From positions 34,531,648-34,595,647 of the forward strand of contig NC_092673.1 in the NCBI RefSeq assembly GCF_964355755.1: a stretch of 64,000 nt of DNA. Direction: 5' to 3'. The stretch comes from Antedon mediterranea (taxonomy: Eukaryota > Animalia > Echinodermata). The notes under the pieces were generated by a model. That model ran no database searches. It was not told where the DNA came from and saw only the letters and a list, made by a program, of their open reading frames with translations. Shown piece after piece: positions 1,763-64,000 of this stretch. Positions within the stretch are counted from its first letter, which is position 1. Every line of letters begins with the position of its first letter. The position numbers were made by a program, and so were the translations under genes.

Positions 1763-13766
<12,004 letters not shown>

Positions 13767-38800: not shown

Positions 38801-40543
38801 TAACAAAATAATAATAAAAAAACATTTTGTATATTAAAATGGTATACGATAAAAATGAAGGCACTGCCCGGATTTGAACCGGGAATCTCCTGTTTACAAG
38901 ACAGGCGCTTTAACCGCTGAGCCACAGCGCGTTGCTGTAATGCTGAATTACGTTAAAAAAATAAAAACTTAAAAAAGTTTTGGTAAATTAAACTGATATA
39001 CGATCAAAATTAAGGAACTGCCCGGATTTGAACCAGGGATCTCCTGTTTACTAGGCAGGCGCTTTAACCGCTAAGCTTTGCTGTAATTTTGAATTACGTT
39101 AAAAAAATAATAATTAAAAAACATTTTGTATATTAAAATAATATACGATAAAAATAAAGGCACTGCCAGGATTTGAACCGGGGACCTCCTGTTTACTAGA
39201 CAGGCGCTTTAACCGCTAAGCCACAGCGCCTTACTGTAATGCTGAATAACGTTAAGAAAAATAATAACTTAAAAAGTTTTTATATATTAAAATGGTATAC
39301 GATAAAAATTAAGGCACTGGCTGGATTTGAACCAGGGATCTCTTGTTTACTAGACAGGCACTTTAACCGCTACGCCACAGCGCCTTGCTGTAATGCTGAA
39401 TTACGTTTAAAAAAAAATAACTTAAAAAAGTTTTGGTAAATTGAACTGGTATACGATCAAAATTAAGGCACTGCCCGGATTTGAACCAGGGATCTCCTGT
39501 TTACTAGACAGGCGCTGTAACCGCTAAGCCACAGCACCTTGCTGTAATTTTGATTTACGTTAAAAAAAATAATAATGAAAAAACATTTTGTATATTATAA
39601 TGGTATACGATAAAAATGAAGGCACTTCCCAGATTTGAACCGGGGATCTCCTGTTTACAAGACAGGCACTTTAACCGCTAAGCCACAGCGCCTTGCTGTA
39701 ATGCTGACTACCTTAAAAAAAAAATAACTGAAAAACGTTTTGTATATTAAAATGGTATACAATAAAAACCAAGGCACTGCCCGGATTTGAACCTGGGATC
39801 TCCTGTTTACAAGACAGGCGCTTTAACCGCTAAGCAACAGCGCCCTTCCTGTATTGCTTAATTACGTTAAAAAAAATAATAATGAAAAAACATTTTGTAT
39901 ATTATAATGGTATATGATAAAAATTAAGGCACCACCTGGATTTGAACTGGGGATCTCCTGTTTACTAGACAGGCACTTCAACCGCTAAGCCACAGTGCTT
40001 TGCTACAACGCTGAACTACGTTAAAAAAATAATAACTAAAAAACGTTTTGTATATTCAAATGGTATATAATAAAAATTAAGGCACTGCCCGGATTTGAAC
40101 CGGGGATCTCCTGTTTACAAGACAGGCGCTTTAACAGCTAAACCACAGGGCCTTCATGTATTGCTTAATTACGTTAAATAAAATAATAAATTTAAAACGT
40201 TTTTGTACATTATAATGGTGTACGATAAAAATTGAGGCACTGCCCTGATTTGAACTAGGGATCTCCTGTTTACAAGACAGGCGCTTTAACCGCTAACCCA
40301 CAGCGCCTTGCTGTAATTTTGAATTACGTTAAAAAAATAATAATTAAAAAACATTTTGTATATTAAAATGGTATACGATAAAAATGAAGGCACTGCCCGG
40401 ATTTGAACCGGGGATCTCCTGATTACTAGACAGGCGCTTTAACCGCTAAGCCACAGCGCCTTACTGTGGTTTTGAATTACGTTAACAAAATAATAATTAA
40501 AAAACATTAATTTGTATATTAAAATGGTATACGATAAAAATGA

Positions 40544-40616
40544 AGGCACTGCCCGGATTTGAACCGGGGATCTCCTGTTTACTAGACAGGCGCTTTAACC
40601 GCTAAGCCACAGCGCC
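40544..40616 (-). tRNA. tRNA-Thr(AGT), representative perfect array copy
   Basis: Identical to the singleton genes; further perfect copies near 43129, 44053, 48606 and 49529. Confidence 0.9.
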
Positions 40617-40851
40617 TTACTGTAGTTTTGAATTACGTTAACAAAATAATAATGAAAAAACATTTTGTATATTAAAATGGTATACGATAAAAATGAAGGC
40701 ACTGCCCGGATTTGAACCGGGGATCTCCTGTTTACAAGACAGGCGCTTTAACCGCTAAACCACAGCGTCTTGCTGTAAATCTGAATTACGTTTAAAAAAA
40801 TAATATCTTAAAAAAGTTTTTGGTAATTTAACTGGTATACGATCTAAATTA

Positions 40852-40924
40852 AGGCACTGCCCGGATTTGAACCGGGGATCTCCTGTTTACAAGACAGGCA
40901 CTTTAACCGCTAAGCCACAGCGCC
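40852..40924 (-). tRNA. tRNA-Thr(TGT), representative near-intact array copy
   Basis: Same body with CT-TGT-AA loop; the only other change makes the first D-stem pair G-T. Confidence 0.65.
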
Positions 40925-43900: not shown

Positions 43901-46900
43901 GGCACTGCCCGGATTTGAACCGGGGATCTCCTGTTTACTAGACAGGCGCTTTAACCGCTAAACCACAGCGCCTTACTGTAGTTTTGAATTACGTTAACAA
44001 AATAATAATGAAAAAACATTTTGTATATTAAAATGGTATACGATAAAAATGAAGGCACTGCCCGGATTTGAACCGGGGATCTCCTGTTTACTAGACAGGC
44101 GCTTTAACCGCTAAGCCACAGCGCCTTACTGTAGTTTTGAATTACGTTAACAAAATAATAATGAAAAAACATTTTGTATATTAAAATGGTATACGATAAA
44201 AAATGAAGGCACTGACCGGATTTGAACCGGGAATCTCCTGTTTACAAGACAGGCGCTTTAACCGCTAAACCACAGCGTCTTGCTGTAAATCTGAATTACG
44301 TTTAAAAAAATAATATCTTAAAAAAGTTTTTGGTAATTTAACTGGTATACGATCTAAATTAAGGCACTGCCCGGATTTGAACCGGGGATCTCCTGTTTAC
44401 AAGACAGGCACTTTAACCGCTAAGCCACAGCGCCTTCATGTATTGCTTAATTACGTTAAATAAAATAATAAATTCAAAACGTTTTTGTATATTAAAATGG
44501 TGTACGATAAAAATTGAGGCACTGCCCTGTATTGAACCAGGGATCTCCTGTTTACAAGACAGGCACTTTAACGGCTAAGCTACAGCGCCTTGCTGTAATC
44601 TTGAATTACGTTAAAAAAATTAATAATTAAAAAACAGTTTGTATATTAAATTGGTATACGATAAAAATAAAGGCACTGCCCGGATTTGAACCGGGAATCT
44701 CACGTTTACTAGACAGGCGCTTTAACCACTAAGCCACAGCGCCTTGCTGTAGTTTTGAATTACGTTACCAAAAAAATAATGAAAAAACATTTTGTATATT
44801 AAAATGGTATACAATAAAAATAAAGGCACTGCCCGGAAGTGAACCTGGGATCTCCTGTTTACTAGACGCTAAGCCACAGCGCCTTACTGTAATGCTGAAT
44901 TACGTTAAGAAAAATAATAACTTAAAAAGTTTTTGTATATTAAAATGGTATACAATAAAAATCAAGGCAGTGCCCGGATTTGAACCCGGGATCTCCTGTT
45001 TACAAGACAGGCGCTTTAACCGCTAAGCAACAGCGACCTGCTGTAATTTTGATTTACGTTAAAAAAAATAATAATGAAAAAAAATTTTGTATATTATAAT
45101 GGTATATGATAAAAATTAAGACAGCGCCCGGATTTGAACCGGGGATCTCCTGTTTACAAGACAGGCGCTTTAACCGCTAAGCAACAGTGCCTTCCTGTAT
45201 TGCTTAATTACGTTAAGAAAAATAATAACTAAAAAACGTTTTGTATATTAAAATGGTATACGATGGATATTAAGGCACTGATTGGATTTGAACCGGGGAT
45301 CTCCTGTTTACTAGACAGGAGCTTTAAGCTTGCTGTAATGATGAATTCGGTTAAAAAGATAGTAACTGAAAAAACGTTTTGTATATTAAAATGGTATACG
45401 ATAAAAATGAAGGCACTGCCCGGATTTGAACCAAGAATCTCCTGTTTACAAGACAGGCGCTTTAACCGCTAAGCCACAGCGCCTTGCTGTAATGCTGACT
45501 ACCTTAAAAAAAAAATAACTGAAAAACGTTTTGTATATTAAAATGGTATACAATAAAAATAAAGGCACTGCCCGGATTTGAACCGGGGATCTCCTGTTTA
45601 CTAGACAGGCGCTTTAACCGCTAAGCCACAGCACCCTCCTGTATTTCTTAATTACGTTAAGAAAAATAATAACTGAAAAACATTTTGTTTAATAAAATGG
45701 TATACGATAAAAATTAAGGCACTGGCTGGAGTTGAACCGGGGATCTCTTGTTTACTAGACAGGCGCTTTAACCAATAAGCCACAGCGCCTTGCTGTAATT
45801 TTGAATTACGTTAAAAAAATAATGATTAAAAAACATTTTGTATATTAAAATGGTATACGATAAAAATGAAGGCACTGCCCGGATTTGAACCAGGGATCTC
45901 CTGTTTACTAGACAGGCTCTTTAACCGCTAAGCCAAAGCGCCTTGCTGTAATGCTGACTACCTTAAAAAAAAATAACTGAAAAACGTTTTGTATATTAAA
46001 ATGGTATACAATAAAAATAAAGGCACTGCCCGGATTTGAACCGGGGATCTCCTGTTTACTAGACGCTAAGCCACAGCGCCTTACTGTAATGCTGATTTAC
46101 GTTAAGAAAAATAATAACTTAAAAAGTTTTTGTATATTAAAATGGTATACAATAAAAATCAAGGCACTGCCCGGATTTGAACCGGGGATCTCCTGTTTAC
46201 AAGACAGGCGCTTTAACCGCTAAGCAATAGCGACTTGCTGTAATTTTGATTTACGTTAAAAAAAATAATAATGAAAAAACATTTTGTATATTATAATGGC
46301 ATATGATAAAAATTAAGACAGCGCCCGGATTTGAACCGGGGATCTCCTGTTTACAAGACAGGCGCTTTAACCGCTAAGCAACAGCTCCTTCCTGTATTGC
46401 TTAATTACGTTAAGAAAAATAATAACTAAAAAACGTTTTGTATATTAAAATGGTATACGATGGATATTAAGGCACTGATTGGATTTGAACCGGGGATCTC
46501 CTGTTTACTAGACAGGCGCTTTAACCTTCCTGTAATGATGAATTCGGTTAAAAAGATAGTAACTGAAAAAACGTTTTGTATATTAAAATGGTATACGATA
46601 AAAATGAAGGCACTGCCCGGATTTGAACCAAGAATCTTCTGTTTACAAGACAGGTGCTTTAACCGCTAAGCCACAGCTCCTTGCTGTTATGCTGACTACC
46701 TTAAAAAAAAAATAACTGAAAAACGTTTTGTATATTAAAATGGTATACAATAAAAATCAAGGCACTGCCCGGATTTGAACCAGGGATCTCCTGTTTACTA
46801 GAAAGGCACTTTAACCGTTAAACCACAATGCCTTCCTGTATTGCTTAATTACGTTAAGAAAAATAATAACTTAAAAAAGTTTTGGTAAATTGAACTGGTA

Positions 46901-49900
46901 TACGATCAAAATTAAGGCACTGCCCGGATTTGAACCGGGGATCTCCTGTTTACAAGACAGGCGCTTTAACCGCTAAGCAACAGCACCCTCCTGTATTGCT
47001 TAATTACGTTAAGAAAAATAATAACTGAAAAACATTTTGTTTAATAAAATGGTATACGATAAAAATTAAGGCACTGGCTGGAGTTGAACCGTGGATCTCT
47101 TGTTTACTAGACAGGCGCTTTAACCAATAAGCCACAGCACCTTGCTGTAATTTTGAATTACGTTAAAAAAAATGATAATTTAAAAACATTTTGTATATTA
47201 AAATGGTATACGATAAAAATGAAGGCACTGCCCGGATTTGAACCAGGGATCTCCTGTTTACTAGACAGGCGCTTTAACCGCTAAGCCACAGCACCTTACT
47301 GTAGTTTTGAATTACGTTAACAAAACAATAATGAAAAAACATTTTGTATATTAAAATGGTATACGATAAAAATAAAGGCCCTGCACGGATTTGAACCGGG
47401 GATCTCCTGTTTAGAAGACAGGCGCTTTAACCGCTAAGCAACAGCGCCTTCCTGTATTGCTTAATTACGTTAAGAAAAATAATAACTAAAAAACGTTTTG
47501 TATATTAAAATGGTATACGATGGATATTAAGGCACTGATTGGATTTGAACCGGGGACCTCCTGTTTACTAGACAGGCACTTTAACCGCTACGCCACAGCG
47601 CCTTGCTGTAATGCTGAATTACGTTTAAAAAAAAATAACTTAAAAAAGTTTTGGTAAATTGAACTGGTATACGATCAAAATTAAGGCACTGCCCGGATTT
47701 GAACCAGGGATCTCCTGTTTACTAGACAGGCGCTGTAACCGCTAAGCCACAGCACCTTGCTGTAATTTTGATTTACGTTAAAAAAAATAATAATGAAAAA
47801 ACATTTTGTATATTATAATGGTATACGATAAAAATGAAGGCACTTCCCAGATTTGAACCGGGGATCTCCTGTTTACAAGACAGGCACTTTAACCGCTAAG
47901 CCACAGCGCCTTGCTGTAATGCTGACTACCTTAAAAAAAAAATAACTGAAAAACGTTTTGTATATTAAAATGGTATACAATAAAAACCAAGGCACTGCCC
48001 GGATTTGAACCTGGGATCTCCTGTTTACAAGACAGGCGCTTTAACCGCTAAGCAACAGCGCCCTTCCTGTATTGCTTAATTACGTTAAAAAAAATAATAA
48101 TGAAAAAACATTTTGTATATTATAATGGTATATGATAAAAATTAAGGCACCACCTGGATTTGAACTGGGGATCTCCTGTTTACTAGACAGGCGCTTTAAC
48201 CGCTAAGCCACAGTGCTTTGCTACAACGCTGAACTACGTTAAAAAAATAATAACTAAAAAACGTTTTGTATATTCAAATGGTATACAATAAAAATTAAGG
48301 CACTGCCCGGATTTGAACCGGGGATCTCCTGTTTACAAGACAGGCGCTTTAACAGCTAAACCACAGGGCCTTCATGTATTGCTTAATTACGTTAAATAAA
48401 ATAATAAATTTAAAACGTTTTTGTACATTATAATGGTGTACGATAAAAATTGAGGCACTGCCCTGATTTGAACTAGGGATCTCCTGTTTACAAGACAGGC
48501 GCTTTAACCGCTAATCCACAGCGCCTTGCTGTAATTTTGAATTACGTTAAAAAAATAATAATTAAAAAACATTTTGTATATTAAAATGGTATACGATAAA
48601 AATGAAGGCACTGCCCGGATTTGAACCGGGGATCTCCTGTTTACTAGACAGGCGCTTTAACCGCTAAGCCACAGCGCCTTACTGTGGTTTTGAATTACGT
48701 TAACAAAATAATAATGAAAAAACATTTTGTATATTAAAATGGTATACGATAAAAATGAAGGCAGTGCCCGGATTTGAACCGGGGATCTCTTGTTTACTAG
48801 ACAGGCGCTTTAACCGCTAATCCACACCGCCTTGCTGTAAGTTTGAATTACGTTAAAAAAATAATAACTTAAAAAAGTTTTGGTAAATTAAACTGATATA
48901 CGATCAAAATTAAGGAACTGCCCGGATTTGAACCAGGGATCTCCTGTTTACTAGGCAGGCGATTTAACCGCTACGCCACAGCGCTTTGCTACATCGCTGA
49001 ACTACGTTAAAAAAATAATAACTAAAAAACATTTTGTATATTCAAATGGTATACAATAAAAATTAAGGCACTGCCCGGATTTGAACCGGGGATCTCCTGT
49101 TCACAAGACAGGCGCTTTAACAGCTAAACCACAGCGCCTTCATGTATTGCTTAATTACGTTAAAGAAAATAATAAATTTAAAACGTTTTTGTACATTATA
49201 ATGGTGTACGATAAAAATTTAGGCACTGCCCTGATTTGAACTAGGGATCTCCTGTTTACAAGACAGGCGTTTTAACCGCTAATCCACAGCGCCTTGCTGT
49301 AATTTTGAATTACGTTAAAAAAATAATAATTAAAAAACATTAATTTGTATATTAAAATGGTATACGATAAAAATGAAGGCACTGCCCGGATTTGAACCGG
49401 GGATCTCCTGTTTACTAGACAGGCGCTTTAACCGCTAAACCACAGCGCCTTACTGTAGTTTTGAATTACGTTAACAAAATAATAATGAAAAACATTTTGT
49501 ATATTAAAATGGTATACGATAAAAATGAAGGCACTGCCCGGATTTGAACCGGGGATCTCCTGTTTACTAGACAGGCGCTTTAACCGCTAAGCCACAGCGC
49601 CTTACTGTAGTTTTGAATTACGTTAACAAAATAATAATGAAAAAACATTTTGTATATTAAAATGGTATACGATAAAAAATGAAGGCACTGACCGGATTTG
49701 AACCGGGAATCTCCTGTTTACAAGACAGGCGCTTTAACCGCTAAACCACAGCGTCTTGCTGTAAATCTGAATTACGTTTAAAAAAATAATATCTTAAAAA
49801 AGTTTTTGGTAATTTAACTGGTATACGATCTAAATTAAGGCACTGCCCGGATTTGAACCGGGGATCTCCTGTTTACAAGACAGGCACTTTAACCGCTAAG

Positions 49901-52900
49901 CCACAGCGCCTTCATGTATTGCTTAATTACGTTAAATAAAATAATAAATTCAAAACGTTTTTGTATATTAAAATGGTGTACGATAAAAATTGAGGCACTG
50001 CCCTGTATTGAACCAGGGATCTCCTGTTTACAAGACAGGCACTTTAACGGCTAAGCTACAGCGCCTTGCTGTAATCTTGAATTACGTTAAAAAAATTAAT
50101 AATTAAAAAACAGTTTGTATATTAAATTGGTATACGATAAAAATAAAGGCACTGCCCGGATTTGAACCGGGAATCTCACGTTTACTAGACAGGCGCTTTA
50201 ACCACTAAGCCACAGCGCCTTGCTGTAGTTTTGAATTACGTTACCAAAAAAATAATGAAAAAACATTTTGTATATTAAAATGGTATACAATAAAAATAAA
50301 GGCACTGCCCGGAAGTGAACCTGGGATCTCCTGTTTACTAGACGCTAAGCCACAGCGCCTTACTGTAATGCTGAATTACGTTAAGAAAAATAATAACTTA
50401 AAAAGTTTTTGTATATTAAAATGGTATACAATAAAAATCAAGGCAGTGCCCGGATTTGAACCCGGGATCTCCTGTTTACAAGACAGGCGCTTTAACCGCT
50501 AAGCAACAGCGACCTGCTGTAATTTTGATTTACGTTAAAAAAAATAATAATGAAAAAAAATTTTGTATATTATAATGGTATATGATAAAAATTAAGACAG
50601 CGCCCGGATTTGAACCGGGGATCTCCTGTTTACAAGACAGGCGCTTTAACCGCTAAGCAACAGTGCCTTCCTGTATTGCTTAATTACGTTAAGAAAAATA
50701 ATAACTAAAAAACGTTTTGTATATTAAAATGGTATACGATGGATATTAAGGCACTGATTGGATTTGAACCGGGGATCTCCTGTTTACTAGACAGGAGCTT
50801 TAAGCTTGCTGTAATGATGAATTCGGTTAAAAAGATAGTAACTGAAAAAACGTTTTGTATATTAAAATGGTATACGATAAAAATGAAGGCACTGCCCGGA
50901 TTTGAACCAAGAATCTCCTGTTTACAAGACAGGCGCTTTAACCGCTAAGCCACAGCGCCTTGCTGTAATGCTGACTACCTTAAAAAAAAAATAACTGAAA
51001 AACGTTTTGTATATTAAAATGGTATACAATAAAAATAAAGGCACTGCCCGGATTTGAACCGGGGATCTCCTGTTTACTAGACAGGCGCTTTAACCGCTAA
51101 GCCACAGCACCCTCCTGTATTTCTTAATTACGTTAAGAAAAATAATAACTGAAAAACATTTTGTTTAATAAAATGGTATACGATAAAAATTAAGGCACTG
51201 GCTGGAGTTGAACCGGGGATCTCTTGTTTACTAGACAGGCGCTTTAACCAATAAGCCACAGCGCCTTGCTGTAATTTTGAATTACGTTAAAAAAATAATG
51301 ATTAAAAAACATTTTGTATATTAAAATGGTATACGATAAAAATGAAGGCACTGCCCGGATTTGAACCAGGGATCTCCTGTTTACTAGACAGGCTCTTTAA
51401 CCGCTAAGCCAAAGCGCCTTGCTGTAATGCTGACTACCTTAAAAAAAAATAACTGAAAAACGTTTTGTATATTAAAATGGTATACAATAAAAATAAAGGC
51501 ACTGCCCGGATTTGAACCGGGGATCTCCTGTTTACTAGACGCTAAGCCACAGCGCCTTACTGTAATGCTGATTTACGTTAAGAAAAATAATAACTTAAAA
51601 AGTTTTTGTATATTAAAATGGTATACAATAAAAATCAAGGCACTGCCCGGATTTGAACCGGGGATCTCCTGTTTACAAGACAGGCGCTTTAACCGCTAAG
51701 CAATAGCGACTTGCTGTAATTTTGATTTACGTTAAAAAAAATAATAATGAAAAAACATTTTGTATATTATAATGGTATATGATAAAAATTAAGACAGCGC
51801 CCGGATTTGAACCGGGGATCTCCTGTTTACAAGACAGGCGCTTTAACCGCTAAGCAACAGCTCCTTCCTGTATTGCTTAATTACGTTAAGAAAAATAATA
51901 ACTAAAAAACGTTTTGTATATTAAAATGGTATACGATGGATATTAAGGCACTGATTGGATTTGAACCGGGGATCTCCTGTTTACTAGACAGGCGCTTTAA
52001 CCTTCCTGTAATGATGAATTCGGTTAAAAAGATAGTAACTGAAAAAACGTTTTGTATATTAAAATGGTATACGATAAAAATGAAGGCACTGCCCGGATTT
52101 GAACCAAGAATCTTCTGTTTACAAGACAGGTGCTTTAACCGCTAAGCCACAGCTCCTTGCTGTTATGCTGACTACCTTAAAAAAAAAATAACTGAAAAAC
52201 GTTTTGTATATTAAAATGGTATACAATAAAAATCAAGGCACTGCCCGGATTTGAACCAGGGATCTCCTGTTTACTAGAAAGGCACTTTAACCGTTAAACC
52301 ACAACGCCTTCCTGTATTGCTTAATTACGTTAAGAAAAATAATAACTTAAAAAAGTTTTGGTAAATTGAACTGGTATACGATCAAAATTAAGGCACTGCC
52401 CGGATTTGAACCGGGGATCTCCTGTTTACAAGACAGGCGCTTTAACCGCTAAGCAACAGCACCCTCCTGTATTGCTTAATTACGTTAAGAAAAATAATAA
52501 CTGAAAAACATTTTGTTTAATAAAATGGTATACGATAAAAATTAAGGCACTGGCTGGAGTTGAACCGTGGATCTCTTGTTTACTAGACAGGCGCTTTAAC
52601 CAATAAGCCACAGCACCTTGCTGTAATTTTGAATTACGTTAAAAAAAATGATAATTTAAAAACATTTTGTATATTAAAATGGTATACGATAAAAATGAAG
52701 GCACTGCCCGGATTTGAACCAGGGATCTCCTGTTTACTAGACAGGCGCTTTAACCGCTAAGCCACAGCACCTTACTGTAGTTTTGAATTACGTTAACAAA
52801 ACAATAATGAAAAAACATTTTGTATATTAAAATGGTATACGATAAAAATAAAGGCCCTGCACGGATTTGAACCGGGGATCTCCTGTTTAGAAGACAGGCG

Positions 52901-55900
52901 CTTTAACCGCTAAGCAACAGCGCCTTCCTGTATTGCTTAATTACGTTAAGAAAAATAATAACTAAAAAACGTTTTGTATATTAAAATGGTATACGATGGA
53001 TATTAAGGCACTGATTGGATTTGAACCGGGGACCTCCTGTTTACTAGACAGGCGCTTTAACCTTCCTGTAATGATGAATTCGGTTAAAAAGATAGTAACT
53101 GAAAAAACGTTTTGTATATTAAAATGGTATACGATAAAAATGAAGGCACTGCCCGGATTTGAACCAAGAATCTCCTGTTTACAAGACAGGCGCTTTAACC
53201 GCTAATCCACAGCGCCTTGCTGTGATGCTGACTACCTTAAAAAAAAAATAACTGAAAAACCTTTTGTATATTAAAATGGTATACAATAAAAATAAAGGCA
53301 CTGCCCGGATTTGAACCGAGGATCTCCTGTTTACTAGACGCTAAGCCACAGCGCCTTACTGTAATGCTGAATTACGTTAAGAAAAATAATAACTAAAAAA
53401 CGTTTTGTATATTAAAATGGTATACGATGGATATTAAGGCACTGATTGGATTTGAACCGGGGATCTCCTGTTTACTAGACAGGCGCTTTAACCTTCCTGT
53501 AATGATGAATTCGGTTAAAAAGATAGTAACTGAAAAAACGTTTTGTATATTAAAATGGTATACGATAAAAATGAAGGCACTGCCCGGATTTGAACCAAGA
53601 ATCTTCTGTTTACAAGACAGGTGCTTTAACCGCTAAGCCACAGCTCCTTGCTGTAATGCTGACTACCTTAAAAAAAAAATAACTGAAAAACGTTTTGTAT
53701 ATTAAAATGGTATACAATAAAAATCAAGGCACTGCCCGGATTTGAACCAGGGATCTCCTGTTTACTAGAAAGGCACTTTAACCGTTAAACCACAACGCCT
53801 TCCTGTATTGCTTAATTACGTTAAGAAAAATAATAACTTAAAAAAGTTTTGGTAAATTGAACTGGTATACGATCAAAATTAAGGCACTGCCCGGATTTGA
53901 ACCGGGGATCTCCTGTTTACAAGACAGGCGCTTTAACCGCTAAGCAACAGCACCCTCCTGTATTGCTTAATTACGTTAAGAAAAATAATAACTGAAAAAC
54001 ATTTTGTTTAATAAAATGGTATACGATAAAAATTAAGGCACTGGCTGGAGTTGAACCGTGGATCTCTTGTTTACTAGACAGGCGCTTTAACCAATAAGCC
54101 ACAGCACCTTGCTGTAATTTTGAATTACGTTAAAAAAAATGATAATTTAAAAACATTTTGTATATTAAAATGGTATACGATAAAAATGAAGGCACTGCCC
54201 GGATTTGAACCAGGGATCTCCTGTTTACTAGACAGGCGCTTTAACCGCTAAGCCACAGCACCTTACTGTAGTTTTGAATTACGTTAACAAAACAATAATG
54301 AAAAAACATTTTGTATATTAAAATGGTATACGATAAAAATAAAGGCCCTGCACGGATTTGAACCGGGGATCTCCTGTTTAGAAGACAGGCGCTTTAACCG
54401 CTAAGCAACAGCGCCTTCCTGTATTGCTTAATTACGTTAAGAAAAATAATAACTAAAAAACGTTTTGTATATTAAAATGGTATACGATGGATATTAAGGC
54501 ACTGATTGGATTTGAACCGGGGACCTCCTGTTTACTAGACAGGCGCTTTAACCTTCCTGTAATGATGAATTCGGTTAAAAAGATAGTAACTGAAAAAACG
54601 TTTTGTATATTAAAATGGTATACGATAAAAATGAAGGCACTGCCCGGATTTGAACCAAGAATCTCCTGTTTACAAGACAGGCGCTTTAACCGCTAATCCA
54701 CAGCGCCTTGCTGTGATGCTGACTACCTTAAAAAAAAAATAACTGAAAAACCTTTTGTATATTAAAATGGTATACAATAAAAATAAAGGCACTGCCCGGA
54801 TTTGAACCGAGGATCTCCTGTTTACTAGACGCTAAGCCACAGCGCCTTACTGTAATGCTGAATTACGTTAAGAAAAATAATAACTTAAAAAGTTTTTGTA
54901 TATTAAAATGGTATACAATAAAAATCAAGGCAGTGCCCGGATTTGAACCCGGGATCTCCTGTTTACAAGACAGGCGCTTTAACCGCTAAGCCACAGCGCC
55001 TTGCTGTGATGCTGACTACCTTAAAAAAAAAATAACTGAAAAACCTTTTGTATATTAAAATGGTATACAATAAAAATAAAGGCACTGCCCGGATTTGAAC
55101 CGAGGATCTCCTGTTTACTAGACGCTAAGCCACAGCGCCTTACTGTAATGCGGAATTACGTTAAGAAAAATAATAACTTAAAAAGTTTTTGTATATTAAA
55201 ATGGTATACAATAAAAATCAAGGCACTGCCCGGATTTGAACCCGGGATCTCCTGTTTACTAGACAGGCGCTTTAACCGCTAAGCCACAGCGCCTTACTGT
55301 AGTTTTGAATTAGGTTAACAAAATAATAATGAAAAAACATTTTGTATATTAAAATGGTATACGATAAAAATGAAGGCCCTGCCCGGATTTGAACCGGGGA
55401 TCTCCTGTTTACAAGACAGGCGCTTTAACCGCTAAGCCACAGCGCCTTGCTGTAATGCTGAATTACGTTAAAAAAATAATAACTTAAAAAAGTTTTTGTA
55501 AATTAAACTGGTATACGATCAGAATTAAGGCACTGCCCGGATTTGAACCAGGGATCTCCTGTTTACTAGACAGGCACTTTAACCGCTAAACCACAACGCC
55601 TTCCTGTATTGCTTAATTACGTTAAGAAAAATAATAACTTAAAAAAGTTTTGGTAAATTGAACTGGTATACGATCAAAATCAAGGCACTGCCCGGATTTG
55701 AACCGGGGATCTCCTGTTTACAAGACAGGCGCTTTAACCGCTAAGCAACAGCACCCTCCTGTATTGCTTAATTACGTTATGAAAAATAATAACTGAAAAA
55801 CATTTTGTTTAATAAAATGGTATACGATAAAAATTAAGGCAGTGGCTGGAGTTGAACCGGGGATCTCTTGTTTACTAGACAGGCGCTTTAACCAATAAGC

Positions 55901-58299
55901 CACAGCGCCTTGCTGTAATTTTGAATTACGTTAAAAAAATAATAATTAAAAAACATTTTGTATATTAAAATGGTATACGATAAAAATGAAGGCACTGCCG
56001 GATTTGATCCAGGGATCTCCTGTTTACTAGACAGGCGCTTTAACCGCTAAGCCACAGCTCCTTAATGTAGTTTTGAATTACGTTAACCAAATAATAATGA
56101 AAAAACATTTTGTATATTAAAATGGTATACGATAAAAATAAAGGCCCTGCACGGATTTGAACCGGGGATCTCCTGTTCACAAGACAGGCGCTTTAACCGC
56201 TAAGCCACAGCGCCTTCCTGTATTGCTTAATTACGTTAAGAAAAATAATAACTAAAAAACGTTTTGTATATTAAAATGGTATACGATGGATATTAAGGCA
56301 CTGATTGGATTTGAACTGTTTACTAGACAGGCGCTTTAACCTTGCTGTAATGATGAATTCGGTTAAAAAGATAGTAACTGAAAAAACATTTTGTATATTA
56401 AAATGGTATACGATAAAAATAGAGGCCCTGCACAGATTTGAACCGGGGATCTCCTGTTTACAAGACAGGCGCTTTAACCGCTAAGCCACAGCGCCATGCT
56501 GTAATGCTGACTACCTTAAAAAAAAATAACTGAAAAACGTTTTGTATATTAAAATGGTATACAATAAAAATAAAGGCACTCCCCGGATTTGAACCGGGGA
56601 TCTCCTGTTTACTAGACGCTAAGCCACAGCGCCTTACTGTAATGCTGAATTACGTTAAGAAAAATAATAACTTAAAAAGTTTTTGTATATTAAAATGGTA
56701 TACAATAAAAATCAAGGCACTGCCCGGATTTGAATCGGGGATCTCCTGTTTACAAGACAGGCGCTTTAACCGCTGAGCAACAGCGACTTGCTGTAATTTT
56801 GATTTACGTTAAAAAAAATAATAATGAAAAAACATTTTGTATATTATAATGGTATATGATAAAAATTAAGACAGCGCCCGGATTTGAACCGGGGATATCC
56901 TGTTTACAAGACAGACGCTTTAACCGCTAAGCAACAGCGCCTTCCTGTATTGCTTAATTACGTTAAGAAAAATAATAACTAAAAAACGTTTTGTATATTA
57001 AAATGGTATACGATGGATATTAAGGCACTGATTGGATTTGAACCGGGGATCTCCTGTTTACTAGACAGGCGCTTTAACCTTGCTCGAATGATGAATTCGG
57101 TTAAAAAGATAGTAACTGAAAAAACGTTTTGTATATTAAAATGGTATACGATAAAAATGAAGGCACTGCCCGGATTTGAACCAAGAATCTCCTGTTTACA
57201 AGACAGGCGCTTTAACCGCTAAGCCACAGCGCCTTGCTGTAATGCTGACTACCTTAAAAAAAAAATAACTGAAAAACGTTTTGTATATTAAAATGGTATA
57301 CAATAAAAATAAAGGCACTGCCCGGATTTGAACCGGGGATCTCCTGTTTACTAGACAGACGCTTTAACCGCTAAGCCACAGCGCCTTACTGTAGTTTTGA
57401 ATTACGTTAACAAAATAATAATGAAAAAACATTTTGTATATTAAAATGGTATACGATAAAAAGAAGGCCCTGCCCGGATTTGAACCGGGGATCTCCTGTT
57501 TACAAGACAGGCGCTTTAACCGCTAAGCCACAGCGCCTTGCTGTAATGCTGAATTACGTTAAAAAAATAATAATGAAAAAACATTTTGTATATTAAAATG
57601 GTATACGATAAAAATGAAGGCCCTGCCCGGATTTGAACCGAGGATCTCCTGTTTACTAGACGCTAAGCCACAGCGCCTTACTGTAATGCTGAATTACGTT
57701 AAGAAAAATAATAACTTAAAAAGTTTTTGTATATTAAAATGGTATACAATAAAAATCAAGGCAGTGCCCGGATTTGAACCCGGGATCTCCTGTTTACAAG
57801 ACAGGCGCTTTAACCGCTAAGCAACAGCGACTTGCAGTAATTTTGATTTACGTTAAAAAAAATAATAATGTAAAAACATTTTGTATATTATAATGGTATA
57901 TGATAAAAATTAAGACAGCGCCCGGATTTGAACCGGGGATCTCCTGTTTACAAGACAGGCGCTTTAACCGCTAAGCAACAGCGCCATCCTGTATTGCTTA
58001 ATTACGTTAAGAAAAATAATAACTAAAAAACGTTTTGTATATTAAAATGGTATACGATGGATATTAAGGCACTGATTGGATTTGAACCGGGGATCTCCTG
58101 TTTACTAGACAGGCGCTTTCATTTCATTTTTTTTTCATTTTCATTTATTCCACATTTATTTAGTCATCAATTACAGTACATCATAATTACAGTACAACTG
58201 AGAACAGGGATCCTGCATAAAAAAGCTATAGCTTCGTTTTTTTGTAGGACCCTTTTACATAAGAACAAGTATATAGAACTTAAATAAACAAAGGTGTTG

Positions 58300-61200
58300 T
58301 TAATCAGCATATAGTGATAAAAAGTATTTTTTAACCTGTTTTTTTATACATTTATTTTGTTTCTTTAAGATAACCGGTTTATTACCACCATTACAAGTGA
58401 ATTCTTTCCACAATTTTGGTCCATATATGTGTATAAACTGTTGACTGCAAGTTAGTCTTGTGAAGGGAATTTCGAATTCAGTTTCTGTTCTGAGGTTATG
58501 AGTAGGCCTAATACTGTCACAGTAATTAAAAATATTTAAAATGTGATGTGGTAATTCATTGAATTTTACGTTTGCCATAAATCCTATGACGTTTACTTTG
58601 TAAATATCATAAACGTTTAATATTTTTAGTTTCTTAAACAGTGGCTCTGAGGCTTGTCTGGATTTAGAGAAGGTAATGCATTTTACAGCTCTCTTTTGGA
58701 GTTTTAGTATTACTTCTAACGTGCTCTTGTATGTATTTCCCCATATTAAGTTACCATACTGAAGGTGAGGTAATACTAAGGTGTTATAAAGACTAATACG
58801 GACTTTATGAGGAAAGAATTCTCTTACTTTTAAAAGTATACCAATTGCCCTAGACATTTTTTTCCTAATAAGCTGTATGTGATGTTTCCAGTTAAGATTT
58901 TCGTTTAACATTACACCTAGAAATGTCACATTTTCTTTTCTATGTAATAACACATTATTCATTTTTATTTTAAACTGGTTTTTGTCAAAGTTCTTTTGGC
59001 TAGTTCTAAAAACAACGTAATTAGTTTTGCTGACATTCAGTAACAGTTTATTTGCTTTAAGCCATACGTTTATTTTTTCTAGTTCAATATTCATAGTATG
59101 GTTTAACATTGTAGGGTCATCTCCCCTTGTTATACAAGTTGTGTCGTCAGCAAAACTAATTATATCTATTTTACTACTTGCTCGACTTATATCATTGATG
59201 TAAATTAAAAACAAAAGTGGTCCTAAAACAGAACCCTGTGGCACCCCTATATTGGTGTCTTTTAAACATGATGATCTACCGTTGGCATAAACATATTGTT
59301 TGCGGCCACTTAAATAGTTTCTAAACCACATTAAAACGATGCCTCTTATACCATAATGCGCCAATTTGCTCAACAGAATACTGTGATCGATAATGTCAAA
59401 CGCTTTTGACAAATCCATAAAGGTAGTAAGTGCATATTCCTTTTTTTCAAATGCATTTAATATTTTATGGACCAAGTCGATCATAGCATGAGAAGTTGAG
59501 TGTTTGTTTCTAAATCCATATTGATTGTTGCTTAACACTTTACATTTTGTAAGATAATTGTATAATTGATTATGGATAATCTTTTCAAAAACTTTCGAAA
59601 AAATGGGCAACAGCGATATGGGACGATAGTTTGAGGCCAAATGGCGGTCCCCTTTTTTATGTATGGGAACTACTTTGGAAATTTTCAACTTCCCTGGTAT
59701 TAGTCCAGTTTGAAGTGATAAATTAAAAATATATGTCAGCGGCTTTAAAATATTGTATTTTACTTCCTTTACAACTTTAGCTGAAATGTCATCAAATCCG
59801 GAGGCTTTGTTTGAATCGAGAGATTCAATAACTTTTATTACCTCCTCCTCATCAACATAGCAAAAAAACATTGAGTTACGTTGTTTGTTTGTGAGGTATT
59901 CAGAATATTTTGTCGTAGTAGACTCAATATTGTCTTGAACCTTACAACCTACATTAATAAAATAATCATTAATATGATTTACAACATTTTCGCAACCATG
60001 TATAGTTTCATTGCTATGTGTAAAAGAAGATGGAACTTTAGTTTTTCCTTTATTCGGATCAATTACATCATTTATAACATTCCATGTTTTTTTAATATTA
60101 CCATTTGTTCGATTGAAAAGATTTTCATAATACATCTTTTTGGCGATTTTGCACGTGCGTGCAAAAGCTTTTTTAAATTCTTTATACGTATTTTTGTTTT
60201 TTACAGTAGGGTTTTTTATGAACCTTTTATACAGTACATGCTTTCTTTTACTTGACCTTAGTAACCCAAAACTCATCCAGGGCTGCTTGAATTTGTCATA
60301 CTGTTTTGATGACTTTACAGTTTTTTTAAGGTGTTTGTTATATAGAAACTTAAAATTATCCAGAAAATCATTATAAGCGATTTCTGGATCAGTCGCTTCA
60401 TATACTCCAAGCCACTCTGCACTTAATAAATCACTATTTAGTTTCATAATATTTCTATTGTTAACTATATACGTGTCACATGAGACTGAGGTGCCTTTAT
60501 TCATGTGCGTGTTTACGTGGGAAGACGAAGCAGAGTGAGTTATTTGATATACTGGTAAATGGTCGGAAATGTCCGAGATTAGTATACCAGATAGAACTTT
60601 TTCGGAAATTGTATTTGAAAATATGTTGTCAATTAGTGTTACTGACTGATCTTGTATTCTAGTTGGTCTAGATATAGATGGATAAAACGAGTGAGATATC
60701 ATTATTTCAATAAAATCATTTACATCACTGCATGTTACATGTTTAAGCAGATTGATATTAAAATCTCCCATGATATAACATGGTTTACCTTCTTTGTCTA
60801 TAGCAGTGAGGACATCTTCAAGTGAATCATTAAAAACATCTATTTTCATGTCTGGTGGTCTGTAGACAGTACCAACAATTGCATTTTTACACTTTTTTTC
60901 AATTATCTCAATAAACAGACATTCACAGAACTTAATTTTCAAATCGGTTCTTGTTTTGACCTCTATAGTATTTGAAATAAACAAGCCAACACCACCTCCT
61001 TTTCGATTTTCCCTGTCTAGAGCATGGAAATCGTAGTTTGGTAAGTATGGTCTAGGTGATGTTTCTTTAAGCCATGTTTCTGATAAGCCAATTACAGTGA
61101 ATGGGTGTTTAATGCCGTTTAAACAAGTAATTAATTCATCTAAGTGTTTGTTAATACTTCTGATATTATAGTGTAAAAATGAGTAGCTGATATTATTTAT

Positions 61201-61416
61201 TTTATTAACCGAGTCATTTAACTGGTCTGTGCTCATATACGAGCATGTCTCTATCGTACATATTTTATTGCTAAGACTATGATCAGTTAGTTCATCCTGT
61301 TCGTCAAAGTTGTTACATAGAGTAATAGGATTGAATAATATATCAGTTTGATTTGATAGATTGTCATTGTTTATACTTGTTGCGCTTTCAGGGTTTGCTT
61401 GAGTAGACTTTTCCAT
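58300..61416 (-). CDS. LINE ORF2: APE endonuclease + reverse transcriptase (1038 aa)
   Basis: HYNIRS, GLSETW, GGGV, VYRPP, MGDFN, TLIDNIF, SDHLP; NYRPISLL, DLSKAFD, GVPQGSVLGPLLFLIYIND, FADD; no stops or frameshifts. Confidence 0.96.
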   Translation of the reverse strand: MEKSTQANPESATSINNDNLSNQTDILFNPITLCNNFDEQDELTDHSLSNKICTIETCSYMSTDQLNDSVNKINNISYSFLHYNIRSINKHLDELITCLNGIKHPFTVIGLSETWLKETSPRPYLPNYDFHALDRENRKGGGVGLFISNTIEVKTRTDLKIKFCECLFIEIIEKKCKNAIVGTVYRPPDMKIDVFNDSLEDVLTAIDKEGKPCYIMGDFNINLLKHVTCSDVNDFIEIMISHSFYPSISRPTRIQDQSVTLIDNIFSNTISEKVLSGILISDISDHLPVYQITHSASSSHVNTHMNKGTSVSCDTYIVNNRNIMKLNSDLLSAEWLGVYEATDPEIAYNDFLDNFKFLYNKHLKKTVKSSKQYDKFKQPWMSFGLLRSSKRKHVLYKRFIKNPTVKNKNTYKEFKKAFARTCKIAKKMYYENLFNRTNGNIKKTWNVINDVIDPNKGKTKVPSSFTHSNETIHGCENVVNHINDYFINVGCKVQDNIESTTTKYSEYLTNKQRNSMFFCYVDEEEVIKVIESLDSNKASGFDDISAKVVKEVKYNILKPLTYIFNLSLQTGLIPGKLKISKVVPIHKKGDRHLASNYRPISLLPIFSKVFEKIIHNQLYNYLTKCKVLSNNQYGFRNKHSTSHAMIDLVHKILNAFEKKEYALTTFMDLSKAFDIIDHSILLSKLAHYGIRGIVLMWFRNYLSGRKQYVYANGRSSCLKDTNIGVPQGSVLGPLLFLIYINDISRASSKIDIISFADDTTCITRGDDPTMLNHTMNIELEKINVWLKANKLLLNVSKTNYVVFRTSQKNFDKNQFKIKMNNVLLHRKENVTFLGVMLNENLNWKHHIQLIRKKMSRAIGILLKVREFFPHKVRISLYNTLVLPHLQYGNLIWGNTYKSTLEVILKLQKRAVKCITFSKSRQASEPLFKKLKILNVYDIYKVNVIGFMANVKFNELPHHILNIFNYCDSIRPTHNLRTETEFEIPFTRLTCSQQFIHIYGPKLWKEFTCNGGNKPVILKKQNKCIKKQVKKYFLSLYAD

Positions 61417-61426
61417 GTTACTTTGG

Positions 61427-63037
61427 TTATTTCGGTTTTAACTTCTGTCTCTTGTACGATGTACTCGGGCGTTGTAACTTGAGGGTTAACTGGACTTTGC
61501 ATCGAATGTTGCTAGCAAGTAGACTTGTTCCATTTTGAGATAGGTGATATCCGTCTTGGGCCAATAAATTGTAGATAATGTTACCATTTCTAAGAAAATT
61601 GCTGTTGTCACAGAATGACAAGTTGTGTATATTGTCAAGTCTCATTGCGTGCTTGATTTCTGCGTTTACCATCTCAATTTTGTAATTTAGTTCCCCTACT
61701 CTCGGTAGACCCAGTGAGATGATAAAGTGGGTATTTGGGAATTCAATGGCATAACTTTTTATCATACTGTAGAGGGCGTTTGCACACTCCTCTGCGCTCA
61801 TATTTTTTATAGTGTTTGTGATTTCATGTATCACGATGCAGTCCGGGTCTTCCTGGAGGTTTTCTAGCGCGTCGCTAATGTCCGATAGGGTATACGCTTG
61901 TATTATTGTTGTATTTGCCATTGGAAGGAGACGATGAGCATCTATATTTTTTAGATGCGAGTTTCCTATTACCGTTATTGATGTTTTTTTTGATTGGCCC
62001 CTTTTTGGTCCGCCTACGCTGGTACTCCTACGATTTTCATGTTGATGTATCGGTAGACTTTTTATAGCATCTGCGTATGTTTGTTGTTTTTTTGCTTTCT
62101 GAACTATGTTGTAGTCAGAGGTATCAACAGCTATTTGTGTTCTTTTTATTTCATATGTTTCATCTTTTGCTTTAGATAGTTTTCGTTCTGTTTCAGTAAT
62201 CTTGTTTTGTAACGTCGTTATTTGATCTTCTTTAGTAGCTATTAGTTTTTCATATGATTTTATTGATTGTAAGTCGGATTGTAGTTTTCTGTTGTCTGTC
62301 TCTAATTGTTTTATTCTTTCAGTTGATTTATCGACATCTTTTCTTAGTTTGGTGTTTTCTTCGGATTTTTTTGGACAGCTTGGTGTGTTTCGAATTTGTT
62401 TTAATGATTCTATTTCTGACATAAGTTTTTTGTTTTCTGTCTGAAGTCTGCTGTTTTCGCCTGTGATCATCTTCACTTTTAGATCACAGTTCTCTTTGAT
62501 TACATTAAGCAGCGTGTCGGCGAAAAAACTTTCTAACTTTTTGATAGCATGTTTACAATCTATATGGGATTTAGATTGTGTGCTTTTACCAATCGTGTTT
62601 CCAGTGTCCGATGCTTTTATCGGTGTAGGTAGCCCTAGTAGTAGTTGTTGAGCTACACTATCAATGTAGTTTTCAGTTTCAGTGATGATGTCAATATCAG
62701 GGGTGATTTGGTCTTGATGATGTGTTGGATATTCCTTATTCAATATCGGTGGTAAGTCAAGTGATATTCCATCTGTATCAATAGCCTCGTTTATATTGCT
62801 ATTTGCGGGCACATCTTTTTCTTTATCAGTATTGTGATTGCTTATATCAGTTACCACGTTATCAATGTGCACATCATTTGCCTTTAGGTAATTAAGGGCT
62901 TTTTCCATATTGTAGAAAGACTGGAATTGGGCCCCATGAACGCTATCTGTGTTTTCTTGGCATTCAAGCCAGGACTTATATATTCCAGGATTTCTTCCCA
63001 CGGCGACTGCATAGATTTTTTTCTTTCTACACGCCAT
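61427..63037 (-). CDS. LINE ORF1 (536 aa): RNase H1-like hybrid-binding (Cauli_VI) domain + coiled coil + SGNH esterase-like domain
   Basis: ATG at 63037 (MACRKKK...). N-terminus IYAVAVGRNPGIYKSWLECQENTDSVHGAQFQSFYNMEKALNYL; central K/E/L/Q heptad region; C-terminus VIGNSH...VIHEITN...IISLGLPR...DGYHLSQNG. Confidence 0.88.
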   Translation of the reverse strand: MACRKKKIYAVAVGRNPGIYKSWLECQENTDSVHGAQFQSFYNMEKALNYLKANDVHIDNVVTDISNHNTDKEKDVPANSNINEAIDTDGISLDLPPILNKEYPTHHQDQITPDIDIITETENYIDSVAQQLLLGLPTPIKASDTGNTIGKSTQSKSHIDCKHAIKKLESFFADTLLNVIKENCDLKVKMITGENSRLQTENKKLMSEIESLKQIRNTPSCPKKSEENTKLRKDVDKSTERIKQLETDNRKLQSDLQSIKSYEKLIATKEDQITTLQNKITETERKLSKAKDETYEIKRTQIAVDTSDYNIVQKAKKQQTYADAIKSLPIHQHENRRSTSVGGPKRGQSKKTSITVIGNSHLKNIDAHRLLPMANTTIIQAYTLSDISDALENLQEDPDCIVIHEITNTIKNMSAEECANALYSMIKSYAIEFPNTHFIISLGLPRVGELNYKIEMVNAEIKHAMRLDNIHNLSFCDNSNFLRNGNIIYNLLAQDGYHLSQNGTSLLASNIRCKVQLTLKLQRPSTSYKRQKLKPK

Positions 63038-64000
63038 AACGTTATCGTGCTTGTGTTTGTATTTGCATATGAACGAAATGGTACGATTTTGTTTGTGACA
63101 GAAACAATAGACAATACTGTTGCCAAGCTTTAAGCTTGCTGTAATGATAAATTCGGTTAAAAAGATAGTAACTGAAAAAACGTTTTGTATATTAAAATGG
63201 TATACGATAAAAATGAAGGCACTGCCCGGATTTGAACCATGAATCTCCTGTTTACAAGACAAGTGCTTTAACCACTAAGCCACAGCGCCTTGCTGTAATG
63301 CTGACTACCTTAAAAAAAAAATAACTGAAAAACCTTTTGTATATTAAAATGGTATACAATAAAAATAAAGGCACTGCCCGGATTTGAACCGGGGATCTCC
63401 TGTTTACTAGACGCTAAGCCACAGCGCCTTACTGTAATGCTGAATTACGTTAAGAAAAATAATAACTTAAAAAGTTTTTGTATATTAAAATGGTATACAA
63501 TAAAAATCAAGGCAGTGCCCGGATTTGAACCGGGGATCTCCTGTTTACTAGACAGGCGCTTTAACCGCTAAGCCACAGCGCCTTACTGTAGTTTTGAATT
63601 ACGTTAACAAAATAATAATGAAAAAACATTTTGTATATTAAAATGGTATACGATAGAAATGAAGGCCCTGCCCGGATTTGAACCGGGGATCTCTTGTTTA
63701 CAAGACAGGCGCTTTAACCGCAAAGCCACAGCGCCTTACTGTAGTTTTGAATTACGTTAACAAAATAATAATGAAAAAACATTTTGTATATTAAAATGGT
63801 ATACGATAAAAATGAAGGCCCTGCCCGGATTTGAACCAGGGATCTCCTGTTTACAAGACAGGCGCTTTAACCGCTAAGCCACAGCGCCTTACTGTAGTTT
63901 TGAATTACGTTAACAAAATAATAATGAAAAAAAATTTTGTATATTAAAATGGTATACGATAAAAATGAAGGCCCTGCCCGGATTTGAACCGGGGATCTCC

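What the first reader, a model, noticed from the sequence alone, without database searches (positions are those of the whole stretch)
62882..63019. LINE ORF1 carries an RNase H1-type RNA:DNA hybrid-binding domain: candidate R-loop-guided retrotransposon in a tRNA array
Seen: ORF1 begins KKIYAVAVGRNPGIYKSWLECQENTDSVHGAQFQSFYNMEKALNYL. Known: this fits the YAVxxGxxxGxYxxWxxC...GAxFxxF...A pattern of the RNase H1 N-terminal hybrid-binding / caulimovirus P6 domain (Pfam Cauli_VI), which binds RNA:DNA hybrids and dsRNA; CR1-group ORF1s are usually described with PHD, zinc finger/leucine zipper, RRM or esterase modules; tRNA genes are R-loop-prone. I see no RNase H catalytic domain in either ORF. 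Inference: a captured hybrid-binding module, multimerised by the coiled coil, could steer the RNP to R-loops at Pol III genes or shield the TPRT RNA:cDNA hybrid from host RNase H. I do not recall this architecture being described but cannot check the literature.
Basis: partly seen in the sequence, partly recalled or inferred. Interest (0 to 1): 0.86.

Follow-up and report, generated by a model that had tools for sequence, protein, structure and literature searches.

The report
LINE ORF1 carrying RNase H1 pieces
A young jumping-gene (LINE) copy carries, at the front of its packaging protein, the RNA:DNA-binding domain of RNase H1, likely a leftover of a whole captured RNase H1 that would help process the element's own RNA:cDNA intermediate rather than steer it to tRNA genes.

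Summary
The domain is real. ORF1 residues 7-50 match Pfam Cauli_VI end to end (E 3e-15), and a model overlays the human RNase H1 hybrid-binding domain (HBD) at 0.7 A. ORF1 is HBD + coiled coil + SGNH esterase, ahead of an APE-RT ORF2. It is not a one-off: 22 of 66 long SGNH relatives carry the HBD, and 10 proteins carry HBD + catalytic RNase H + SGNH. The HBD is therefore most likely the retained half of a captured RNase H1. Schneider 2013 reported that no esterase ORF1 had a folded RNA-binding domain. One relative has the same ORF1 ahead of a very different, probably RTEX-type ORF2, suggesting an ORF1 swap. tRNA/R-loop targeting is not supported. This copy is 5'-truncated and sits in a tRNA unit lacking its 5' part, with empty sister units. 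Junction flanks shown from other samples are not array DNA, though only 24 of 212 were shown. 'Shielding' conflicts with published data that RNase H helps LINEs. Two basic binding residues are lost here. Binding is untested.

The parts
58115..58119 (.). Target-site duplication, left copy (GCTTT on +)
   Evidence: same 5 bases at 63127-63131; empty sister units at 41811, 45321, 50797
58120..58299 (-). 3' UTR ending in a short (A)nTG-type microsatellite tail
   Evidence: tail type typical of CR1/L2/RTE groups (recalled)
58300..61416 (-). ORF2, 1038 aa, intact: APE endonuclease (res 83-286) + reverse transcriptase (res 585-836); no RNase H; CR1-group-like (Crack/Daphne/L2-2 label recalled, not tested against references)
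61427..63037 (-). ORF1, 536 aa, intact: HBD + disordered linker + coiled coil + linker + SGNH esterase
   Evidence: the ORF1/ORF2 junction is bridged by contigs of other samples (records 7, 22, 30)
62882..63019 (-). RNase H1-type hybrid-binding domain (ORF1 res 7-52). W23 and F38 (human W43, F58) are kept; Q39 and S40 replace human K59 and K60
62135..62569 (-). Predicted coiled coil (res 157-301)
   Evidence: long helices, mostly pLDDT above 90; weak coiled-coil Pfam hits
61478..61987 (-). SGNH esterase (res 351-520) with S360, N408, D495, H498 and the transposon-type H404/S441 pair
   Evidence: includes 4c1b, ZfL2-1 ORF1 esterase; Z 19.1, rmsd 2.1, 164 aligned
63038..63126 (-). Remnant of the 5' UTR. 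The copy is 5'-truncated; in four other runs the element continues at least 156-371 nt further. There is a 2-nt microhomology with the target
63127..63131 (.). Target-site duplication, right copy
36757..58119 (-). tRNA-Thr tandem array, 154-bp period, about 141 copies (continues at 63127-64000). The interrupted unit lacks the tRNA's 5' part

Best explanation
This is an intact, recently inserted, 5'-truncated LINE whose esterase-type ORF1 protein carries the hybrid-binding domain of RNase H1, likely kept from a whole RNase H1 captured long ago, and the domain would hold the multimeric ORF1 protein on the element's own RNA:cDNA hybrid during target-primed reverse transcription. Shown: the domain and its fold; the family of HBD + coiled coil + SGNH proteins; relatives with HBD + catalytic RNase H + SGNH; a LINE context for two HBD-bearing members. 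Inferred: the ancestral ORF1 supplied RNA removal in cis, the job host RNase H2 does for L1 and ZfL2-2. Inferred: lineages then lost the catalytic part, the HBD, or both; in this element the HBD only tethers or chaperones, and a host RNase H does the cutting. Inferred: this RTEX-type ORF1 was joined to a CR1-group ORF2 by module exchange. The tRNA-array location is likely incidental.
For: HBD. Family: of 155 proteins scanned, 141 have the SGNH domain; 66 of those are 430 aa or longer, and 22 of the 66 also have an N-terminal HBD (the query profile contained the HBD, which favours them). HBD-bearing rows are scattered over deep branches of the SGNH tree: 21 of 65 rows, 15 changes, no clear clustering (36 of 500 shuffles as low), as expected for an old domain lost repeatedly. 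Of 24 RNase H domains found in 193 proteins, 14 sit in SGNH proteins (10 of them with the HBD); 12 of the 14 keep D-E-D-D, and they group with eukaryote-type RNase H1 (several are near-copies). Two Pinctada relatives, 42% identical, have HBD + RNase H (P0279) or HBD alone (P0310). The W43-equivalent is kept in 28 of 29 ORF1 HBDs, Y29 in 27 of 29, and K/R at K59 in 22 of 29. W43A abolishes hybrid binding in the human enzyme (PMC6846478). LINEs without their own RNase H need cellular RNase H (PMC6068448). ORF1 swap: window vs L001 SGNH is 50% identical, but RT is 33% and the APE barely matches (7.9 bits, against 54.7 bits to an L2-like ORF in the window). The domain layout matches RTEX ORF1s in Schneider Table S1.
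Against: No binding or retrotransposition data exist. This copy has Q and S at K59/K60 and lacks R32/R33/R57; the K59A and K60A changes cut human binding nearly 10-fold. The closest named relative, P0003 (Antedon mediterranea, 47%), has no HBD as annotated. Genomic context was seen for only two HBD-bearing proteins (window and L001) plus one SGNH-only fragment (L003). None of the RNase H-bearing proteins was shown to be a LINE ORF1. The ORF1-borne RNase H domains are not one clade in the tree (4 changes, long branches), so a single capture is not shown. HBDs also bind dsRNA, and the yeast one more tightly than hybrid (PMC7657459).
Confidence: 0.45

Rival explanations
1. The HBD serves mainly as a double-stranded-RNA binder that lets the esterase ORF1p grip stem-loops of its own mRNA for RNP assembly, replacing the RRM that this ORF1 class lacks.
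For: Esterase ORF1ps lack a folded RNA-binding domain, and how they bind RNA is an open question (PMC3905857 section 13). [quoted passage not shown] Human K60 is G in 25 of 29 ORF1 HBDs, so the surface differs from the human one.
Against: Co-occurrence with an intact catalytic RNase H in relatives points to hybrids. The human and fly enzymes bind dsRNA much more weakly and ssRNA not at all. Many SGNH relatives lack the HBD (44 of 66, though some may be truncated).
Confidence: 0.25
2. In this element the HBD is a decaying remnant left after loss of the catalytic domain and does nothing important.
For: K59Q/K60S and loss of other basic residues. Loss in the nearest named relative P0003. HBD identity to L001 (35%) is no higher than that of the coiled coil (33%) and lower than SGNH (49%).
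Against: The full 44-position profile matches at 56.6 bits. The core aromatic residues are kept across deep branches, and many HBD-only lineages exist without catalytic domains, while linkers diverge (22-24%).
Confidence: 0.15
3. The HBD steers insertion to R-loops, especially at Pol III tRNA genes.
For: The copy sits in a tRNA-Thr array in the same orientation as the tRNAs. Tandem HBDs detect R-loops in cells (PMC10639055), so a multimeric ORF1p could do so.
Against: There is one insertion among about 141 units, in a unit lacking the tRNA's 5' part, and three near-exact sister units are empty. Depth falls steeply from 3' to 5' (X2 11,510 to 172), as with many truncated copies. None of the 24 loose ends shown (of 212) resembles the array unit, judged by eye. 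No contig in four runs bridges the 5' junction. Caveat: the tool drops human-like reads, which could hide junctions containing the tRNA core.
Confidence: 0.1
4. The HBD shields the TPRT hybrid from host RNase H.
For: A catalytically empty HBD could compete with host enzymes (inference only).
Against: Cellular RNase H promotes L1 and ZfL2-2 retrotransposition. Relatives carry an RNase H with intact catalytic residues in the same protein.
Confidence: 0.05

Closest known systems
Esterase-type ORF1p of RTEX and CR1/L2 LINEs (ZfL2-1 ORF1p, PDB 4c1b; RTEX-NV/BF/SK; Schneider 2013, PMC3905857)
   Same: Coiled coil plus C-terminal SGNH esterase. Length and layout resemble RTEX ORF1s (e.g. RTEX-3_NV CC 148-261, esterase 371-538; here 157-301 and 351-520). 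The H/S pair 37 residues apart matches the transposon-specific H191/S228.
   Different: Has an N-terminal RNase H1 HBD, a folded nucleic-acid-binding domain reported absent from this class. Relatives add catalytic RNase H, PHD or NADAR. Here it is coupled to a CR1-group-like ORF2.
Eukaryotic RNase H1 (HBD 3bsu, 1qhk)
   Same: HBD sequence and fold. In relatives, HBD + linker + catalytic domain in the same order, with DEDD.
   Different: No catalytic domain in this element. K59/K60 are replaced. Fused to a retrotransposon ORF1.
LINEs with RNase H in ORF2 (plant L1 RNH, PMC5203782 passages; I-group and Proto1, recalled)
   Same: A non-LTR element, or in the relatives a presumed one, carrying its own RNase H part.
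   Different: In those elements RNase H lies downstream of RT in ORF2 and no HBD is described. Here the module is at the ORF1 N-terminus.
Small-RNA-gene-targeting elements (Dada, Utopia: search listing only; Dewa and Dictyostelium TRE recalled)
   Same: Copy found inside a tRNA gene array.
   Different: No repeated same-site insertion seen. The other flanks shown are not array DNA.
Caulimovirus P6/TAV (source of the Pfam name)
   Same: Same small domain family.
   Different: No other viral feature; no relatives among viral contigs. Relatives point to cellular-type RNase H1 as donor (inferred).

Membership tests
RNase H1 HBD (Cauli_VI) | Profile match above the curated cut-off over the full length | tested here: met
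   56.6 bits vs cut-off 21, profile 1-44/44
RNase H1 HBD (Cauli_VI) | beta-beta-alpha-beta-alpha fold | tested here: met
   predicted model; 3bsu rmsd 0.7 A over 46 columns
RNase H1 HBD (Cauli_VI) | Binding-surface residues W43, F58, K59, K60 | tested here: inconclusive
   W and F kept, K59->Q and K60->S
RNase H1 HBD (Cauli_VI) | Binds RNA:DNA hybrids | not testable with these tools
   needs EMSA or BLI
Non-LTR retrotransposon (LINE) | ORF1 + APE-RT ORF2, 3' repeat tail, TSD, 5' truncation | tested here: met
Esterase-type ORF1p | Coiled coil + SGNH fold with catalytic S, N, D, H and transposon-specific H/S | tested here: met
   the H/S equivalence rests on spacing; activity not tested
CR1 group (Crack/Daphne/L2-2) by ORF2 | RT phylogeny with labelled Repbase references | not testable with these tools
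   No labelled references were available. The APE is closer to an L2-like ORF than to L001. The label is recalled.
RTEX clade | RTEX-type RT/APE in ORF2 | tested here: inconclusive
   The ORF1 layout fits RTEX. The window ORF2 is unlike the ORF2 behind its ORF1 relatives L001/L003. The RTEX label for L001 is recalled from motifs.
tRNA-gene-targeting retroelement | Repeated independent insertions at tRNA genes | tested here: inconclusive
   One insertion. Other flanks shown are non-array, but only 24 of 212 were shown and human-like reads are filtered. No genome was held.
RNase H-encoding LINE | Catalytic RNase H domain in this element | tested here: not met
   none in ORF1 or ORF2 at E<=0.1; present only in relatives

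The most novel reading that the evidence does not exclude
A widespread marine-invertebrate lineage of LINEs put a complete host-type RNase H1 (HBD + active nuclease) into ORF1p rather than ORF2p, so the RNP coat itself finds and degrades the RNA of the TPRT hybrid. The ORF1 cassette has since shed or gained modules (HBD, RNase H, PHD, NADAR) and moved between the RTE and CR1 groups; this element is an HBD-only, CR1-coupled derivative. That would overturn the generalisation that esterase ORF1ps have no folded nucleic-acid-binding domain and would place ORF1p at the integration site.
Probability: 0.4. Interest if true: 0.75.

Novelty: new variant of a known kind. Interest (0 to 1): 0.58.

Why it matters
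How LINEs remove their RNA template before second-strand synthesis, and whether ORF1p acts at the integration site, are open questions. So is how esterase-type ORF1ps touch nucleic acid at all. A natural series of ORF1s with HBD + RNase H, HBD only, RNase H only or neither makes both questions testable by domain swaps in a standard retrotransposition assay. It also gives a concrete candidate for ORF1 exchange between distant LINE groups.

Tried and rejected
No host genome was held, so insertions could not be mapped genome-wide. Viral contigs: 79 pattern matches, no relative. L002 and L003 show no HBD in six frames; L003 starts inside the SGNH domain and L002 is broken. An Atlas search with P0279 gave only a sub-threshold feature hit. 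Cluster look-ups gave no names for 10 of 10 deeper representatives. No RNA holder was listed for the element, which says nothing about expression. The array spacer had no cover in organism B runs while the element did; an uncovered part is not evidence. A coiled-coil oligomer prediction did not run, so the oligomeric state is unknown. Earlier scan findings: four look-ups returned nothing. Ten paper searches and term finds in PMC4120745, PMC13343379, PMC11203168, PMC10294476 and PMC5203782 found no description of an HBD or RNase H in a LINE ORF1. Repbase, Dfam, subscription journals and PMC2829327 were not available, and supplement file 1 of PMC3905857 was not searchable. Rejected: a chance motif; a nested-insertion artefact at the ORF1/ORF2 junction (bridged in three other runs); a direct caulimovirus origin.

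Full report
Observation. The minus strand carries two intact ORFs: ORF1 at 63037-61427 (536 aa) and ORF2 at 61416-58300 (1038 aa), 10 nt apart. ORF1 residues 7-50 match Pfam Cauli_VI over the whole profile (E 3.1e-15, 56.6 bits, cut-off 21). ORF2 has APE and RT domains, and neither ORF has an RNase H catalytic hit at E<=0.1. PDB sequence hits for the N-terminus are the yeast and human RNase H1 N-domains. A model of residues 1-60 overlays human HBD 3bsu at 0.7 A over 46 columns. The full-length model shows the HBD at pLDDT about 95, a disordered linker, long helices at 157-301 and an SGNH domain at 351-520. Foldseek hits include the ZfL2-1 ORF1 esterase 4c1b, and VIA-align gives Z 19.1 to an SGNH esterase.

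The insertion. The element spans 58120-63126 between 5-bp duplications at 58115-58119 and 63127-63131, inside a 154-bp tRNA-Thr array of about 141 units to its left. The interrupted unit lacks the 5' part of the tRNA. Three near-exact sister units are empty (240-242 of 245 bases match the empty site), and seven more share a similar deletion. Public contigs from four runs (three studies, two organism labels) all continue past 63128 into element-specific sequence for at least 156-371 nt, and none bridges the element-array junction. This copy is therefore 5'-truncated in its UTR, and the insertion was not seen in those runs; contigs drop rare variants. Summed depth falls from 11,510 at the 3' end to 172 over ORF1 in X2, and similarly in X1 and X6. 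Depth is not copy number, but the shape fits many truncated copies. None of the 24 loose ends shown (of 212) resembles the array unit by eye. The tool removes human-like reads, which may hide junctions containing the tRNA core, so this weakens targeting without excluding it. Contigs of three runs bridge the ORF1/ORF2 junction, so the two ORFs are one element. The nearest named ORF1 relative is from the crinoid Antedon mediterranea (47%); an echinoderm host is inferred.

The family. A profile of six ORF1s against 1.84 billion representatives gave 101 hits at E<=1e-30. Among 155 proteins examined (11 and 144 new), 141 have the SGNH domain; 66 of those are at least 430 aa long, and 22 of the 66 also have an N-terminal HBD. 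The query favoured HBD-bearing proteins, and some of those lacking it may be truncated. Pfam on the 68 new proteins of at least 430 aa shows HBD, PHD, NADAR and RNase H modules in varying combinations. The Atlas's top feature hit (0.91) is a 75-member eukaryotic cluster with Cauli_VI in all members. On an SGNH tree of 65 rows (two short domains dropped) the 21 HBD rows need 15 changes and are not clearly clustered (36 of 500 shuffles as low). That fits an old domain lost often, though repeated gain is not excluded. A last search found further HBD + RNase H + NADAR + SGNH proteins, one from Pinctada imbricata automatically named 'ribonuclease H'; a related Pinctada cluster has four members. Of 24 RNase H domains in 193 proteins, 14 lie in SGNH proteins (10 with the HBD, 4 without), 12 of the 14 keep D-E-D-D, and they fall with eukaryote-type RNase H1 but do not form one clade (several rows are near-copies). 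P0279 (HBD + RNase H) and P0310 (HBD only) are 42% identical. I infer that the HBD is the retained half of a captured RNase H1. No genomic context was seen for any RNase H-bearing protein; their LINE status is inferred from architecture.

ORF1 exchange. The metagenome scan confirmed 3 of 534 pattern matches. L001 has an HBD + coiled coil + SGNH ORF1 followed by an APE-RT ORF2. L003 has an SGNH end followed by an APE 56-58% identical to that of L001. Window vs L001: SGNH 50%, RT 33%, APE only 7.9 bits, whereas the window APE scores 54.7 bits to an L2-like ORF elsewhere in the window. RT identity alone does not separate these pairs (33% vs 34%); the APE does. An ORF1 domain more conserved than the RT is the reverse of the usual order, which suggests module exchange. 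The ORF1 layout matches RTEX ORF1s in Schneider's Table S1. The RTEX label for L001 and the Crack/Daphne-like label for the window ORF2 are recalled, not tested on references.

Binding surface. The alignment to 3bsu and the numbering in PMC6846478 (passages) map human W43, F58, K59, K60 to W23, F38, Q39, S40. W43A or deletion of F58-K60 abolishes hybrid binding, and the K59A/K60A changes cut it nearly 10-fold. Across 29 ORF1-type HBDs, W is kept in 28, the Y29 equivalent in 27, K/R at 59 in 22 (Q in 7), and position 60 is G in 25. The family likely still binds duplex nucleic acid. This copy is probably a weaker binder, which multimerisation could offset (inferred; tandem HBDs work as an R-loop sensor, PMC10639055 passages). 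HBDs also bind dsRNA, the yeast one preferentially (PMC7657459 passages).

Mechanism. RNase H2, and partly RNase H1, promote L1 retrotransposition, and the paper extends this to other elements lacking their own RNase H, testing the CR1-group ZfL2-2 (PMC6068448 passages). That makes shielding unlikely and makes an ORF1-borne RNase H1 sensible. Best reading (0.45): the HBD engages the element's RNA:cDNA hybrid; relatives would cut it in cis, and this element would rely on host enzyme. Rivals: dsRNA-based RNP assembly (0.25), vestige (0.15), R-loop/tRNA targeting (0.10), shielding (0.05).

What is known. Schneider 2013 (PMC3905857; passages, sections 12 and 13, and part 1 of supplement file 2) states that no esterase ORF1p in Repbase had an RRM or other folded RNA-binding domain. 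Metcalfe and Casane 2014 and a 2026 CR1-group survey have zero occurrences of RNase or ribonuclease (term finds). PMC5203782 mentions RNase H only in ORF2. PMC11203168, PMC5408684, PMC10294476 and PMC5753468 were seen as passages only. Ten searches found no report of this architecture.

Verdict. A real, apparently undescribed ORF1 architecture shared by a broad family of marine-invertebrate proteins. It is a new variant of a known kind, and the tRNA-targeting story is unsupported. Interest 0.58.

Noticed in passing
window 4159-7284 (+): A second intact APE-RT ORF (1041 aa stop to stop), L2-like, 26% identical to the element's ORF2.
   Followed up: partly
window 36757-64000: The tRNA-Thr array mixes AGT and TGT anticodons on one tRNA body, has a few TCT (Arg) and one ATT (Asn) call, recurring deleted units and a higher-order repeat of about 5.5 kb; 121 ARAGORN calls in the window.
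   Followed up: partly
proteins P0010, P0156, P0161, P0174, P0181, P0200, P0231, P0234, P0249; Atlas rows: SGNH-type ORF1 relatives often carry a NADAR domain between the coiled coil and the esterase. Atlas neighbours carry 2OG-Fe(II) (AlkB-like) or KH domains (leads only). These ORF1s seem to collect nucleic-acid-related modules.
   Followed up: partly
beyond window 63128 in runs X1, X2, X6, X8: The element's own longer 5' UTR has a CCAAT-box-like word just upstream of the truncation point, a possible internal Pol II promoter (motif reading recalled).
   Followed up: no
cluster of P0278 (P0301-P0303): Several near-identical HBD + RNase H + NADAR + SGNH proteins come from contigs of 42.9-44.9 kb; the similar sizes could be chance or point to a larger element.
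   Followed up: no
window 13011-13766 (+): A 251-aa acidic ORF, probably an exon of a host gene.
   Followed up: no
window 559-1675, 7359-8216, 17014-17796, 26914-29069: Minisatellite arrays with periods of 64, 17, 61 and 46 bp.
   Followed up: no
window 29502-29574 and 30619-30692 (-): Two isolated tRNA-Thr(AGT) calls upstream of the array.
   Followed up: no
proteins P0147, P0169, P0186, P0196, P0248, P0266, P0276: Proteins with 5-8 tandem HBDs, some with a bacterial-type RNase H, were drawn in by the profile.
   Followed up: no
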